Shown here: in pieces, positions 1-5,066 of the stretch
How positions within the stretch are numbered: the first letter of the stretch is position 1
How the letters are laid out: each line of letters opens with the position of its first letter
The notes under the pieces: generated by a model
What the model saw: the letters and a program-made list of their open reading frames with translations, nothing else
Database searches by the model: none
Told to the model about the DNA's origin: nothing
Translations under genes and position numbers: made by a program
Virus record (IMG/VR): IMGVR_UViG_3300008807_000037
Coordinates: 1 to 5,066 of that record
Direction: 5' to 3' (one strand)
DNA from: a virus
DNA length: 5,066 bases

Positions 1-99
1 AAGCTCCGGATGGAGTGCTGGAGCCATTACCTCCAGCACTAAGATTAGGATTAAGGCCAGCAGCTATAAGATCTTGAACCTCTCGCTGATGAGCAGTAT
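1..99. repeat. Left copy of a 99-nt exact terminal overlap, identical to 4968-5066. It marks closure of a circular genome with a 4967-nt unit.
   Basis: Base-by-base comparison: 1-99 (aagctccggatggagtgctggagccattacc...gatgagcagtat) equals 4968-5066. The overlap runs to the window end, and reading across it restores one continuous ORF. Confidence 0.96.
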
Positions 100-3170: not shown

Positions 3171-3491
3171 TCAAGTAGAAACAATGCCCAGTCCTGGTTT
3201 TTGAGGCTCTATAAGTGCCTTAATATCGTGCATATTAGCAATATGCTCTAAATTTTGAGTTGTGATAAGTCCTGTTTTTCGAGAATAAGTACCAATACGG
3301 AAAATTTGGTAATCTTCAGCGTTTCTAAAAAATGGATTTTTAGATTGACTAGGATCAGACATCATGTTTGTAACCTCGCGAATAAGAGAAAGATGGTTAG
3401 GAGCTAAGGTTGGCTCTCCATAAGAGGAAGTTTTAGTATCATAAATAGTAAATACCTCAAGATCTACTTGAGTGTCTTTTTTTCCGAACAT
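3171..3491 (-). CDS. Conserved Microviridae non-structural protein of unknown function, 106 aa.
   Basis: AAGGAG lies 8 nt upstream of the ATG at 3491. The sequence VFTIYDTKTSSYGEP...NAEDYQIFRIGTYSRKTGLI fits the F-x-I-Y-D-x-K-x-x-x-Y-x-x-P ... (P/A)EDY-x-(L/I)-x-x-IG-x-(F/Y)-x-x-x-TG pattern. I recall that pattern from small proteins annotated as nonstructural or hypothetical in gokushovirus genomes. Confidence 0.8.
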   Translation of the reverse strand: MFGKKDTQVDLEVFTIYDTKTSSYGEPTLAPNHLSLIREVTNMMSDPSQSKNPFFRNAEDYQIFRIGTYSRKTGLITTQNLEHIANMHDIKALIEPQKPGLGIVST

Positions 3492-3594
3492 TTTTGTTCT
3501 CCTTTTTGTTTCGATAGCGACGAGTCGCTAATCGTTGTTGTTTTTTTCGTTTAAGGCAAGCAATACACTCGCCAAACCTATTAAGTTTTGTCAT

Positions 3595-3695
3595 GTGTAA
3601 TGTAATATGACGGTAATATGACAATAGTAAAGAGATTTTACAAAAATTCCTTTTTTTGGGCGTTGCACTGTGAACCCAAAACAAAAGGAGATTTT
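3595..3695. promoter_or_regulatory. Putative divergent control region between the - strand gene block and the + strand small ORF.
   Basis: No convincing ORF lies here. The - strand candidate promoter is TTGTAA (3643-3638), a 17-nt spacer, then TGtCATATT (3623-3615, extended -10 like). The + strand candidate is ATGACA (3618-3623), an 18-nt spacer, then AAAAAT (3642-3647). Both are weak matches to sigma70 consensus and were found by eye only. Confidence 0.3.
3602..3622. repeat. Tandem direct repeat GTAATATGAC x2 with an 11-nt period, plus a partial GTAAT copy at 3597-3601.
   Basis: Exact copies of gtaatatgac lie at 3602-3611 and 3613-3622, separated by a single g. They sit inside the putative control region and overlap the candidate -10 elements. 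Confidence 0.9.
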
Positions 3696-3866
3696 ATGAA
3701 AAATCAATATAGTACAGAAGAAAAAATAACGTTTTTCGAAGAAAAACTTAGAGAATTAAATATAGAAATCGCATATAAAGCGATGATATTAGATAAGAAA
3801 AAGAATTTTCTAAAAAAGAAAATTCAAGAATTAAAAGCAGAGAAAACTGGAACAAAAGAGAGCTAA
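3696..3866 (+). CDS. Candidate opposite-strand small protein, 56 aa, Lys/Glu-rich and predicted helical or coiled-coil. Function unknown.
   Basis: AAGGAG (3685-3690) is followed by a 5-6 nt spacer and ATG at 3696. The translation is MKNQYSTEEKITFFEEKLRELNIEIAYKAMILDKKKNFLKKKIQELKAEKTGTKES. The stop TAA lies in the loop of a hairpin terminator. The ORF fills the only gene-free gap. Caveats: it is AT-rich and low in complexity, it is on the opposite strand from every other gene, and a mirror ORF exists on the - strand. Confidence 0.5.
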   Translation: MKNQYSTEEKITFFEEKLRELNIEIAYKAMILDKKKNFLKKKIQELKAEKTGTKES

Positions 3867-3877
3867 CGCTCTCTTTT
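3854..3877. terminator. Hairpin with an A-tract and T-tract, a candidate bidirectional intrinsic terminator at the end of the + strand ORF.
   Basis: aaaagagagc (3854-3863), loop taac, gctctctttt (3868-3877). This is a perfect 10-bp stem with a GAGAGC/GCTCTC core flanked by A4 and T4, followed by aaataattttt on the + strand and by uuuuguuccaguuuuc on the - strand. Confidence 0.5.
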
Positions 3878-3913
3878 AAATAATTTTTGAATAAAATAAT
3901 AATAAGTAACATA

Positions 3914-3945
3914 GTTAGGGAAAGCCTGGCACGGCTTTCCCTAAC
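3914..3945 (-). terminator. Perfect 13-bp hairpin followed by a T-rich tail on the - strand, a likely terminator of the long - strand transcription unit.
   Basis: gttagggaaagcc (3914-3926), loop tggcac, ggctttccctaac (3933-3945). Read on the - strand, the stem is followed by TATGTTACTTATTATTATTTTATTC. There is no T-run after it on the + strand. Confidence 0.5.
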
Positions 3946-4045
3946 ACCCTATCCTGGACATCCTGATCGGCGCTCAATCGTCGCTGTTGTCTACGCTCGA
4001 CCGACAGCGTGGTCTCGCTTACGGCCACATCGTGTGGCCTTTAAT
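3946..4045. other. GC-rich structured non-coding island downstream of the VP3 stop. Its function is unknown.
   Basis: Hand count gives 54 G+C in 3951-4040 (60%), against 19 of 90 (21%) in 3691-3780. It contains an imperfect hairpin at 3982-4009 (CGCTGT-t-GTC / GAC-cg-ACAGCG), a hairpin at 4023-4039 (GGCCACA tcg TGTGGCC), and a direct ATCCTG repeat at 3951-3956 and 3960-3965. No ORF longer than 19 codons on the - strand starts here. Confidence 0.55.
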
Positions 4046-4054
4046 ACCATGAAC

Positions 4055-4651
4055 CTAAGATTGTTCCTTCGTAGCCTCCTTCTCCTGCGTCGTCGTCGTT
4101 TGTGGCGTCACTTGAGGATTAGGTTCAGGTATAAGTATCTTGTCAATTTCACTTTGTTTCAATATGCCAAGTTTAATCATCTTTTCCGCATTCGCTGGAT
4201 TATCAATAAACTTTAAGAATTCAAGATGATTTGAGAAATTACGAGTAATTTCTTCTGGTAGTTCTTCGAATGCTTTTCTAGATTCGTAAACTACATTTTT
4301 CGCATCCTGAAGAGATGGCTCATTAGAGAAATCGTGTCCCATGATTTCTTGTCGATGAGACGTTCTAGCAGCAATATAAGCTGCAACCTCATCGGGTTTA
4401 TATTTTTTCATAAGATAATTAATATCAGTAAGATGAGCAGTGTGTTGTTCAGCAAGAGTAGGACAATTTGAAAAGTCCTGTTGAATACGAAACGTCCCGT
4501 TTGGGCGTTTCGTTATTTTAACAATAACTTTATTTAAAACTTCCTTTGCAATCCTAACTCGCTCAGTAATAATCTCTCCAGTATTTTGATCAACGAACTC
4601 AGTGTCAGATACATAGTCTTCTAATTCAGTTTGTTTATTTTTTTTAGACAT
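4055..4651 (-). CDS. VP3: Internal scaffolding protein VP3, 198 aa.
   Basis: The position immediately after VP2 (11-nt gap, AGGA upstream) and the motifs fit gokushovirus VP3. These include TLAEQHTAHLTDINYLMKKY (the conserved E-x-D-I-N-x-I-x-x-K-Y type block), HDFSN..SLQDAKN and FEELPEEITRNFSNHLEFLKFIDNPANAEK. The Pro/Thr/Gln/Glu-rich tail looks disordered. Confidence 0.9.
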   Translation of the reverse strand: MSKKNKQTELEDYVSDTEFVDQNTGEIITERVRIAKEVLNKVIVKITKRPNGTFRIQQDFSNCPTLAEQHTAHLTDINYLMKKYKPDEVAAYIAARTSHRQEIMGHDFSNEPSLQDAKNVVYESRKAFEELPEEITRNFSNHLEFLKFIDNPANAEKMIKLGILKQSEIDKILIPEPNPQVTPQTTTTQEKEATKEQS

Positions 4652-4662
4652 AATTTTTTCCT

Positions 4663-5066
4663 TTAAGGTATTGTTCCACCAGATGAAGGTGGAACAGAGT
4701 TGTTATTCCAAGATTTTCTCAAAAACTTTAAAATATTATGCATCACATTTGAAGCTTCACCTTCAAGTTCAGCGCGTATCATTCCTTTTTGATAAAGAAT
4801 CTTTTTCATTTTATTAAGATCAGTGTCAGAAAGTGTCTTTGCAATATCAGCAGCAGAATTAGCCTTATCAATATCAATTTTTTGCTGGTTTTGATTAAGC
4901 TGTCTGTCCATATTGTACATAGAAACAATCGACGGAAGATCGATCTGAGGAGCTTGAGGATTAGCAGAAGCTCCGGATGGAGTGCTGGAGCCATTACCTC
5001 CAGCACTAAGATTAGGATTAAGGCCAGCAGCTATAAGATCTTGAACCTCTCGCTGATGAGCAGTAT
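4663..5066 (-). CDS. VP2: C-terminal part of VP2, open to the window edge. The unique portion is 4663-4967, and 4968-5066 repeats codons already counted in 1-99.
   Basis: The frame stays open upstream of the track's Met at 4920: ...SGASANPQAPQIDLPSIVS-MYNMDRQLNQ.... The stop TAA is at 4665-4663. The frame is in phase with the ATG at 259 once the 99-nt overlap is collapsed. Confidence 0.85.
   Translation of the reverse strand, partial: TAHQREVQDLIAAGLNPNLSAGGNGSSTPSGASANPQAPQIDLPSIVSMYNMDRQLNQNQQKIDIDKANSAADIAKTLSDTDLNKMKKILYQKGMIRAELEGEASNVMHNILKFLRKSWNNNSVPPSSGGTIP
4968..5066. repeat. Right copy of the 99-nt exact terminal overlap.
   Basis: It is identical to 1-99. Confidence 0.96.

What the first reader, a model, noticed from the sequence alone, without database searches (positions are those of the whole stretch)
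3946..4045. 60% GC, hairpin-dense island in an otherwise AT-rich genome, between the VP3 stop and the terminator
A hand count gives 54 of 90 G+C for 3951-4040, against 19 of 90 for 3691-3780. The island holds two stem-loops (3982-4009 imperfect, 3+6 bp; 4023-4039, 7 bp with a 3-nt loop). It abuts the perfect 13-bp hairpin at 3914-3945 and contains a short ATCCTG direct repeat. It has no plausible ORF. In ssDNA phages, structured non-coding DNA in the virion strand is where complementary-strand synthesis is primed. Examples are the PriA/n' site in the phiX174 F-G spacer and the RNA-polymerase-recognised hairpins in filamentous phages. The Rep nick site of gokushoviruses is also poorly defined. 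Other possibilities are a 3'-UTR stability element, a small RNA, or a captured host fragment such as a recombination site, which the sharp compositional jump would fit.
Basis: partly seen in the sequence, partly recalled or inferred. Interest (0 to 1): 0.65.

Follow-up and report, generated by a model that had tools for sequence, protein, structure and literature searches.

The report
Conserved three-hairpin non-coding module in gokushovirus
The GC-rich patch is real and forms part of a conserved, hairpin-anchored non-coding module that some small single-stranded DNA phages carry after their scaffold gene, most likely a folded-DNA signal for starting the second strand, but that function is untested.

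Summary
The window is a circular 4,967-nt gokushovirus whose genes all lie on the window minus strand, which is therefore the virion and mRNA strand. "Hairpin-dense" is only partly right. The 7-bp hairpin (4023-4039) and the adjacent 13-bp hairpin (3914-3945) are real, but the central 75 nt fold no better than shuffled sequence.

Comparison with relatives shows a module on the virion strand, 5'->3':
- VP3 stop
- a GC hairpin
- an unalignable GC-rich spacer
- a 42-nt conserved block (3991-3950)
- an invariant GGGTGTTAGGG (3949-3939)
- a hairpin with a fixed base and a covarying distal stem (8 of 12 pairs compensatory in 16 genomes)

The module occurs in about half of the close relatives and in a clade whose VP1 is only about 42% identical. 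It is absent from about 76 other gokushoviruses. Its presence does not track Rep similarity. I found no Rfam family, tRNA, plasmid or host match.

Best reading (about 0.35): a G4-oric-like single-stranded-DNA signal for complementary-strand priming. Rivals are an mRNA 3'-end element, a mobile non-coding cassette, an antisense sRNA and the Rep origin. Similar hairpins occur as multiple copies in some bacterial and giant-virus contigs, which I cannot explain.

The parts
3914..3945 (-). Hairpin B: 13-bp perfect stem with a 6-nt loop. The base TTAGGGA/TCCCTAA is nearly invariant across relatives, and the distal stem covaries.
   Evidence: In alignment A2 of 16 genomes, 12 pairs are 87% paired and 8 pairs show changes on both sides, with 0 of 500 shuffles reaching the observed values. 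CM R1 scores 47.3 bits at 3913-3959 on the minus strand.
3939..3949 (-). Invariant motif GGGTGTTAGGG (CCCTAACACCC on the plus strand). GGGTG is unpaired 5' of hairpin B, and TTAGGG opens the stem.
   Evidence: Seven relatives retrieved independently of the motif carry it exactly: six by protein search (L127, L128, L130, L132, L351, L360) and L002 by whole-genome DNA BLAST. L359 has one mismatch. It is also exact in the distant clade L001, L033, L097, L122 and L357. Chance expectation is about 0.002 per 5-kb genome.
3950..3991 (-). Conserved block, virion strand GACAACAGCGACGATTGAGCGC + CGATCAGGATGTCC + AGGATA. The core is 3970-3991. 3955-3968 is a degraded copy of small hairpin S (GNNCA-GGA/CGA-TGNNC in relatives).
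   Evidence: 86% identical to L351 and 73-74% to L001, L122 and L357. Alignments. Hairpin S is 80% paired, with 2 pairs and 6 cells compensatory. In the window only 3 of its 5 pairs form.
3992..4022 (-). Variable GC-rich spacer.
   Evidence: 41-51% identity to relatives, that is unalignable. It folds no better than shuffles.
4023..4039 (-). Hairpin A: 7-bp GC-rich stem with a CGA triloop on the virion strand (GGCCACA-CGA-TGTGGCC), 15 nt after the VP3 stop. Relatives carry a GC hairpin of different sequence in the same place, often with a CA-NGA-TG top.
4055..4651 (-). VP3 internal scaffolding gene. Its stop codon (4055-4057) is the upstream boundary of the module.
   Evidence: Pfam Chlamy_scaf, E = 7.7e-20.

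Best explanation
The island is the body of a roughly 140-nt non-coding module (3914-4054) that probably acts on the packaged single strand, the window minus strand. After infection the strand is coated by host SSB. The stable GC-rich hairpins A and B, plus hairpin S in relatives, stay folded and leave a defined protein-free landing site. A host priming enzyme then recognises the sequence-fixed foot of hairpin B together with the unpaired GGGTG and the conserved block, and lays down the RNA primer for complementary-strand synthesis. That enzyme could be DnaG primase, as at G4 oric, or RNA polymerase or PriA as in other ssDNA replicons.

Shown:
- the anatomy and its position
- sequence invariance of the hairpin foot
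- covariation of the distal stems
- patchy, module-like distribution
- lack of correlation with Rep

Inferred:
- that the folded molecule is DNA and not RNA
- that the ligand is a host priming enzyme
- the site of initiation

The invariant foot always keeps a CTA or TTA trinucleotide (CCCTAA or CCCTTA). From memory, these are preferred start sites of some non-enterobacterial primases. This is a lead only.
For: - All Pfam-supported genes are on the minus strand. By established Microviridae biology, the virion strand has mRNA sense, so the module lies on the packaged strand in the largest non-coding region.
- Whole modules in 15 genomes are strongly structured (mean z = -4.9), although their sequences are mostly unalignable.
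- Hairpin B has 164 Watson-Crick pairs, 3 G.T pairs and 16 different stems in 16 genomes, with compensatory changes at 8 of 12 pairs. So few wobble pairs suits DNA better than RNA.
- An invariant 11-mer and a 42-nt block are conserved above the level of the coding sequence. This implies sequence-specific recognition, not structure alone.
- GC enrichment to 57-60% in a 37% GC genome is what stable DNA hairpins need.
- Precedent: G4ori has three stem-loops that exclude SSB and position primase (PMC6783573). Triloop mini-hairpins recur at ssDNA priming sites (PMC13037366). Related coliphages use non-homologous minus-strand origins, so a patchy distribution is expected (my own knowledge).
- Presence of the motif does not follow Rep identity, which points to a host factor.
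Against: - Nothing here shows priming.
- Folding energies show no strand bias: the virion strand is more stable in 9 of 15 modules (p = 0.93). The wobble count is too small to decide (3 vs 0).
- mRNA has the same sense as the virion strand, so an RNA 3'-UTR role fits the same data.
- Close relatives L358 and L361 have only a single hairpin in this position, and L354 and L123 lack the motif. The module is therefore dispensable or replaceable.
- Hairpin S is degraded in the window itself.
- There is no CTG after the hairpins as in G4, and no sequence similarity to G4 or phiX origins.
- Similar hairpins occur in multiple copies in bacterial and giant-virus contigs. A phage replication signal does not predict this.
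Confidence: 0.35

Rival explanations
1. The module is an mRNA 3'-end element. It is transcribed as the 3' UTR of the VP1-VP2-VP3 message. Hairpins A and B block 3' exonucleases or end transcription, and the conserved purine-rich GGAAGGGUGUUAGGGA binds a host RNA-binding protein.
For: - The module lies directly after the last structural gene.
- In the window, hairpin B is scored terminator-like on the minus strand.
- mRNA sense equals virion sense, so all the covariation evidence applies equally.
- Relatives without the module have a single hairpin at the same junction (L358, L361).
Against: - In most relatives hairpin B is followed by A-runs, not T-runs (L002, L096, L128, L351, L001, L097).
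- A stabiliser needs no invariant 11-mer or 42-nt block.
- Wobble pairs are almost absent (3 of 167).
- GGA motifs are not enriched: 55 on the sense strand vs 43 on the antisense strand. A CsrA-type sponge is therefore not supported.
Confidence: 0.25
2. The module is a portable non-coding cassette. It moves between replicons by recombination or through a hairpin-recognising enzyme such as an HUH nuclease or transposase, and it may be selfish or serve as a recombination site.
For: - Distribution among close relatives is patchy, and the module is present in a clade with only 31-33% Rep and about 42% VP1 identity.
- It sits in a variable slot that carries unrelated antisense ORFs in different relatives.
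- Extended hairpins of the same sequence followed by ACACCC(TT)CC occur outside microviruses:
  - at least 5 dispersed copies of a roughly 270-nt repeat in one Oscillospiraceae MAG
  - Thioalkalivibrio and Spirochaetaceae intergenic regions
  - inverted and tandem copies on giant-virus contigs L121 and L086
  - several copies in L280 and L254
Against: - The non-microvirus loci were retrieved with the motif pattern itself, so their match to the motif is by construction. Similarity beyond the hairpin and about 10 nt is weak.
- No transposase or microvirus gene lies next to them.
- No target duplication or empty site could be defined.
- In every phage the module occupies the same position, which fits inheritance plus loss.
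Confidence: 0.18
3. The island encodes a small RNA on the window plus strand, antisense to the phage genes. It would start at the 13-bp hairpin, expose the C-rich ACACCCUAUCC sequence, and end at hairpin 4023-4039 plus TTTAAT.
For: - A promoter-like site TTTAAA-17-AATAAT lies at 3875-3903 on the plus strand.
- Read in antisense, the VP3-proximal hairpin is a textbook terminator in L033, L097, L122 and L096.
- The clade does transcribe this strand, because it carries antisense ORFs.
Against: - In L128 an antisense terminator abuts hairpin B and leaves no room for a promoter. L128, L002, L351 and L357 have no T-run at the VP3 end.
- In the window the T-run is only TTTAAT.
- There is no Rfam match.
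- Folding shows no plus-strand bias, and the three wobble pairs favour the other strand.
Confidence: 0.08
4. The conserved hairpin and motif are the Rep (VP4) recognition and nick site, that is the plus-strand origin.
For: HUH nucleases commonly recognise a hairpin with a fixed flanking single-stranded sequence (my own knowledge). The gokushovirus nick site is undefined.
Against: - The motif is absent from relatives whose Rep is 57-62% identical to the window's (L354, L123, L124), yet it is exact in phages with 31-33% identical Rep.
- It is absent from about 76 other gokushoviruses.
- There is no phiX-type CTTGATA signal above chance anywhere in the window, so this test neither places the origin elsewhere nor here.
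Confidence: 0.05

Closest known systems
Phage G4 origin of complementary-strand synthesis (G4 oric), also in St-1, alpha3 and phiK
   Same: - A non-coding stretch of the virion strand of a microvirus.
- About 100-140 nt with three stem-loops that stay free of SSB.
- A sequence-specific part combined with structure-only parts.
- Triloop or mini-hairpin tops.
(PMC6783573; PMC13037366.)
   Different: - No sequence similarity.
- No CTG 3' of the hairpins.
- Located after VP3, not between F and G.
- The host is unknown.
- The middle hairpin is degraded in the window.
- Priming is untested.
phiX174 n' (PriA) primosome assembly site and the conserved intergenic hairpins predicted in reekeekee- and roodoodoo-microviruses
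   Same: Conserved intergenic hairpins with compensatory changes in Microviridae, interpreted as possible minus-strand initiation sites (PMC9865509).
   Different: - Different clades, positions and sequences.
- Those hairpins are single or double, without an invariant flanking 11-mer.
- The authors likewise could not assign a function.
Single-strand origins and ssi signals of rolling-circle plasmids and filamentous phages (ssoA, M13 minus-strand origin, RSF1010 ssiA)
   Same: Orientation-dependent folded ssDNA with short conserved sequence elements inside otherwise variable hairpins. They are exchangeable between replicons and depend on host factors (my own knowledge; ssiA in PMC13037366).
   Different: No RSB or CS-6 motifs and no promoter-like hexamers in the stems. 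None of these elements matched the island in the plasmid search.
Repetitive extragenic palindromes and MITE-like hairpin repeats
   Same: The hairpin-plus-flank unit occurs in dispersed, inverted and tandem copies in some bacterial and giant-virus contigs.
   Different: In the phages it is single-copy, at a fixed position, and joined to a conserved block. No GTAG-type REP signature and no associated transposase was found.

Membership tests
G4-type complementary-strand origin (primase-dependent ssi) | Lies in a non-coding region of the packaged strand | tested here: met
   All genes are on the minus strand. The module lies between the VP3 stop and the next genes, and no credible ORF crosses it.
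G4-type complementary-strand origin (primase-dependent ssi) | Three defined stem-loops | tested here: inconclusive
   Hairpins A, S and B are present in L351, L001, L122 and L357. In the window only A and B are stable, and S forms 3 of its 5 pairs.
G4-type complementary-strand origin (primase-dependent ssi) | 5'-CTG-3' start site 3' of the hairpins | tested here: not met
   No conserved CTG follows hairpin B. CTA or TTA is conserved in the hairpin foot instead.
G4-type complementary-strand origin (primase-dependent ssi) | Sequence homology to the G4, St-1 or alpha3 origins | tested here: not met
   BLASTN of 3880-4060 against 50,697 phage records matched only one Microviridae metagenome genome, MW202535.
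G4-type complementary-strand origin (primase-dependent ssi) | Primase and SSB make a primer on the single strand | not testable with these tools
   Needs biochemistry or an M13 rescue assay.
Intrinsic (Rho-independent) terminator | GC-rich stem followed by a T-run on the transcribed strand | tested here: inconclusive
   The window's hairpin B is scored terminator-like on the minus strand. Its counterparts in L002, L096, L128, L351, L001 and L097 are followed by A-runs.
Any Rfam RNA family, tRNA or tmRNA | Covariance-model or ARAGORN match | tested here: not met
   No hit covers 3946-4045 at E <= 10. There is none in 12 related loci and no tRNA.
Rep (HUH) plus-strand origin | Site co-varies with its Rep protein, or a phiX-type CTTGATA nick motif is present | tested here: not met
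   Motif presence is uncorrelated with Rep identity. CTTGATAWT occurs at chance level.
Host-derived attachment or recombination site (tRNA-type attP, dif, attC) | Identity to a host sequence, or the canonical site layout | tested here: not met
   The island has no host or plasmid match. By inspection, from memory of the consensus sites, there is no ATAA-N6-TTAT dif core. The arms read GTTAGGG...CCCTAAC, the reverse of the attC order RYYYAAC...GTTRRRY.
CsrA/RsmA-titrating RNA | Dense GGA motifs in hairpin loops | tested here: not met
   There are 3 GGA in 148 nt of the window module. Across 15 modules the count is 55 sense vs 43 antisense. Several S loops read CGA.

The most novel reading that the evidence does not exclude
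The hairpin with the fixed foot TTAGGGA...TCCCTAA and the ACACCC(TT)CC flank defines a previously undescribed class of portable non-coding element. It would be shared by two divergent gokushovirus clades, by bacterial chromosomes (multi-copy in an Oscillospiraceae genome) and by giant-virus contigs. It would work as a transferable single-strand initiation or nicking site read by a conserved enzyme.
Probability: 0.12. Interest if true: 0.75.

Novelty: new variant of a known kind. Interest (0 to 1): 0.5.

Why it matters
No one has defined where gokushoviruses, the dominant ssDNA phages in many environments, start complementary-strand synthesis. No cis-acting replication signal is defined for them in the literature I could search. 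This module gives a concrete target of about 140 nt, with an invariant 11-mer, a conserved block and covarying stems, that can be tested by cloning, deletion and primer mapping. Its patchy distribution, and look-alike hairpins in bacteria and giant viruses, also raise the possibility that such signals are exchanged between unrelated replicons.

Tried and rejected
- **Rfam and ARAGORN.** Rfam on the window and on 12 related loci, and ARAGORN on the window, gave nothing for the island.
- **Host capture.** BLASTN against phages and plasmids, and pattern scans of 185,579 genomes and of the JGI metagenomes, found no source for the island. Most pattern hits were chance, for example the PriA coding motif LVPEISLTPQ.
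- **Exact-protein look-ups.** Look-ups of VP3 and ORF5 to find near-identical strains found none on record, so no microdiversity analysis was possible.
- **Strand of folding from energies.** No asymmetry was seen. A first run with dinucleotide shuffles timed out.
- **CsrA sponge.** I raised this because GUACAGGAUGUAC resembles, from memory, the CsrA SELEX consensus. I rejected it on GGA counts.
- **Read-through of the VP3 TAG stop.** It adds only 11 codons before a TAA (sequence).
- **phiX-like nick motif.** It occurs at chance level.
- **attC and dif.** The layouts do not fit, by inspection.
- **Literature.** A search for the motif strings returned only unrelated primer sequences.
- **Scan of the conserved block plus the motif.** A scan of IMG/VR for the two together found only two contigs.

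Full report
**Context.** The window is a circular contig: bases 1-99 repeat at 4968-5066, giving a unit of 4,967 nt. Pfam identifies the following genes, all on the window minus strand:
- major capsid VP1 (305-1942)
- Rep VP4 (1952-2950)
- ORF5 (3171-3491)
- scaffold VP3 (4055-4651)

The closest deposited genome is Apis mellifera associated microvirus 33, about 70% identical over 65% of the window. Microviridae package the strand of mRNA sense (established knowledge). The virion strand is therefore the window minus strand, and the island lies immediately 3' of the VP3 stop on that strand.

**Checking the observation.** The hand counts are exact: 54/90 and 19/90. The island is the compositional extreme of the genome. 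Every 100-nt window with at least 56% GC starts between 3909 and 3957, against a mean of 36.7% and sd of 6.2. The 13-bp hairpin (3914-3945), the 7-bp hairpin (4023-4039) and the ATCCTG repeat are present. The claim of dense structure is weaker.
- The stretch 3905-4057 has z = -5.05 as minus-strand DNA, but that signal comes from the two perfect hairpins.
- The 75 nt between the two hairpins fold like shuffled sequence, with z between -0.06 and -0.6.
- The 3982-4009 stem is not conserved.

**What relatives show.** I obtained relatives in three ways:
- whole-genome and island BLAST (L001, L002)
- protein-based retrieval, independent of the motif (L123-L133, L346-L361)
- motif patterns (L012, L033, L096, L097, L122, L357), where the motif match is by construction

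Read on the virion strand, the region after VP3 has a common plan:
- a GC-rich hairpin A just after the stop codon, different in sequence in each genome, often topped by CA-NGA-TG
- a GC-rich stretch that cannot be aligned
- in a subset, a conserved block GACAACAGCGACGNTTGAGCGC followed by a small hairpin S (GTACA-GGA-TGTAC, GGGCA-GGA-TGCCC, GTTC-TGGAT-GAAC)
- a purine-rich linker
- an invariant GGGTGTTAGGG, whose TTAGGG opens hairpin B
- A/T-rich sequence

In window coordinates the module maps as follows:

| Part | Window coordinates |
|---|---|
| Hairpin A | 4039-4023 |
| Variable stretch | 4022-3992 |
| Conserved block | 3991-3950 |
| Invariant motif | 3949-3939 |
| Hairpin B | 3945-3914 |

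**Strength of conservation.**
- The block is 86% identical between the window and L351. It is 73-74% identical to L001, L122 and L357, whose VP1 is only about 42-44% identical and whose Rep is 29-33% identical. The VP3 gene of L351 is 66% identical at the DNA level, and the VP3-proximal half of the island is 41-51% identical.
- Hairpin B has 16 different sequences in 16 genomes, with 164 Watson-Crick pairs and 3 G.T pairs. On alignment A2, 8 of 12 pairs show changes on both sides and 87% of cells are paired. Neither shuffled nor slid controls come close.
- Hairpin S has modest support: 80% paired, with 6 compensatory cells. It is degraded in the window, apparently by a small duplication that created the CAGGAT/ATCCTG repeat.
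- All 15 modules tested fold better than shuffles, with mean z = -4.9.

**Distribution.**
- Of about 16 distinct close relatives (VP1 59-80% identical) retrieved without reference to the motif, by protein search or whole-genome BLAST, seven carry the exact 11-mer.
- One more has a single mismatch (L359), and L346 carries a diverged version with the same architecture.
- L358 and L361 have only a single hairpin between VP3 and a convergent antisense ORF. L354, L123 and L124 lack the motif.
- A covariance model of motif plus hairpin B found nothing convincing in about 76 more distant gokushovirus genomes.
- In those genomes the GC maximum almost never lies in a non-coding gap: 5 of 71 genomes, all but one from the window's clade.
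- The GenBank phage collection holds the motif in only two records that I could find.

**Which function.** The Rep-origin idea fails a simple test. The motif is missing where Rep is 57-62% identical to the window's, and it is exact where Rep is 31-33% identical. This points to a host factor or to self-mobility.

The terminator idea fits the window but not the family, where A-runs follow hairpin B.

I developed an antisense small-RNA idea because, read in antisense, the VP3-proximal hairpin is a perfect terminator in four relatives. However, L128 leaves no room for a promoter, and several genomes lack the terminator.

A CsrA-sponge idea was rejected on motif counts.

Folding energies show no strand preference. 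The three wobble pairs all favour the virion or mRNA strand, but three is too few.

What remains is a structure-plus-sequence signal on the virion-sense strand. The best precedent is G4 oric. There, three stem-loops keep SSB off and position primase, which starts at a fixed trinucleotide next to them (PMC6783573). Very stable triloop hairpins are typical of ssDNA priming sites (PMC13037366). Related coliphages use unrelated minus-strand origins (my own knowledge), so patchiness is not an argument against this role. An mRNA 3'-end role follows at about 0.25 and a portable cassette at about 0.18.

**Unexplained.** Pattern scans also returned true extended hairpins with the same foot and ACACCC(TT)CC flank outside microviruses:
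- at least five dispersed copies of a roughly 270-nt intergenic repeat in one Oscillospiraceae MAG
- single intergenic copies in Thioalkalivibrio versutus and a Spirochaetaceae MAG
- several metagenome contigs
- inverted and tandem copies on giant-virus contigs that encode an intein-bearing RNA polymerase subunit

None has microvirus genes nearby. These loci were selected by the pattern, so only the stem extension and the multi-copy state count as evidence. With about 30-100 chance pattern hits and a 4^-5 chance of five or more extra pairs, such stems are not expected by chance. Whether they are related to the phage module is open.

**Novelty.** Full-text searches found no description of this motif or of a defined minus-strand origin in gokushoviruses. 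The nearest report is of predicted intergenic hairpins in other Microviridae clades (PMC9865509). I rate the finding as a new variant of a known kind, a folded cis-element in an ssDNA phage. Interest is moderate, because it makes an open question directly testable.

Noticed in passing
window 3696-3866 (+), terminator 3854-3877: A 56-aa ORF on the strand opposite to all other genes, with an AAAGGAG ribosome-binding site and its own hairpin-plus-T-run terminator. L351 has a 46% identical homologue, and L361 seems related. Other relatives carry unrelated small antisense ORFs (51-81 aa, found by independent gene callers) in the same slot. None has a Pfam or PHROG match. Opposite-strand genes are unusual for Microviridae (my own knowledge).
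   Followed up: partly
window 3602-3611 and 3613-3622: A tandem decamer GTAATATGAC occurs twice, 11 nt apart (GTCATATTAC on the coding strand). It lies upstream of the small basic ORF and ORF5. Relatives have GTAATATTAC, GTAACGTTAC or GTCATATTAC pairs at the same place, just after a TTGACA in L123, L127, L128 and L361. It looks like an operator or promoter element.
   Followed up: no
window 3653-3680: A hairpin TTTTGGG-(C GTTGCACTGTGAA)-CCCAAAA lies between the antisense ORF's ribosome-binding site and the decamers. Relatives keep a similar loop (GTTCACAG../TTCACTTGC..) with different stems: TTAGGG/CCCTAA in L123, L127 and L128, and ATTGCC/GGCAAT in L358. This suggests a second conserved structured element.
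   Followed up: no
window 3489-3572 (-): A weak Rfam match to the freshwater-2 RNA motif (23.7 bits against a gathering score of 49.9; E = 1.9) covers the leader and start codon of ORF5. It is below threshold but in a plausible 5'-leader position.
   Followed up: no
L121 6016-6056 and 6895-6957; L086 1353-1475; L008 883-923: Giant-virus contigs (Rpb2 with inteins and a group I intron) carry inverted and tandem copies of ATAAGGAAACC-TAC-GGTTTCCCTAACACCCTTCCC. This shares 21-22 identical bases with the hairpin-B region of microvirus L001.
   Followed up: partly
L216, L221, L225, L230, L232 (Oscillospiraceae MAG SIG645): A roughly 270-nt intergenic repeat is dispersed over at least five contigs. 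It starts with TTTAGGGAAACTTTTT..AAAAAGTTTCCCTAACACCCTTC and is followed by three GC hairpins. The flanking genes are unrelated.
   Followed up: partly
L133 about 4945-4961 of the doubled sequence (contig junction): The relative's contig contains GTTTCCCAGTCACGATC, a random-amplification primer sequence (identified from memory), between duplicated ends. This looks like an assembly artefact in that public contig, not in the window.
   Followed up: no
window 1-99 and 4968-5066: An exact 99-nt terminal direct repeat shows that the contig is a circular genome of 4,967 nt. The pilot-protein gene VP2 runs across the junction.
   Followed up: yes
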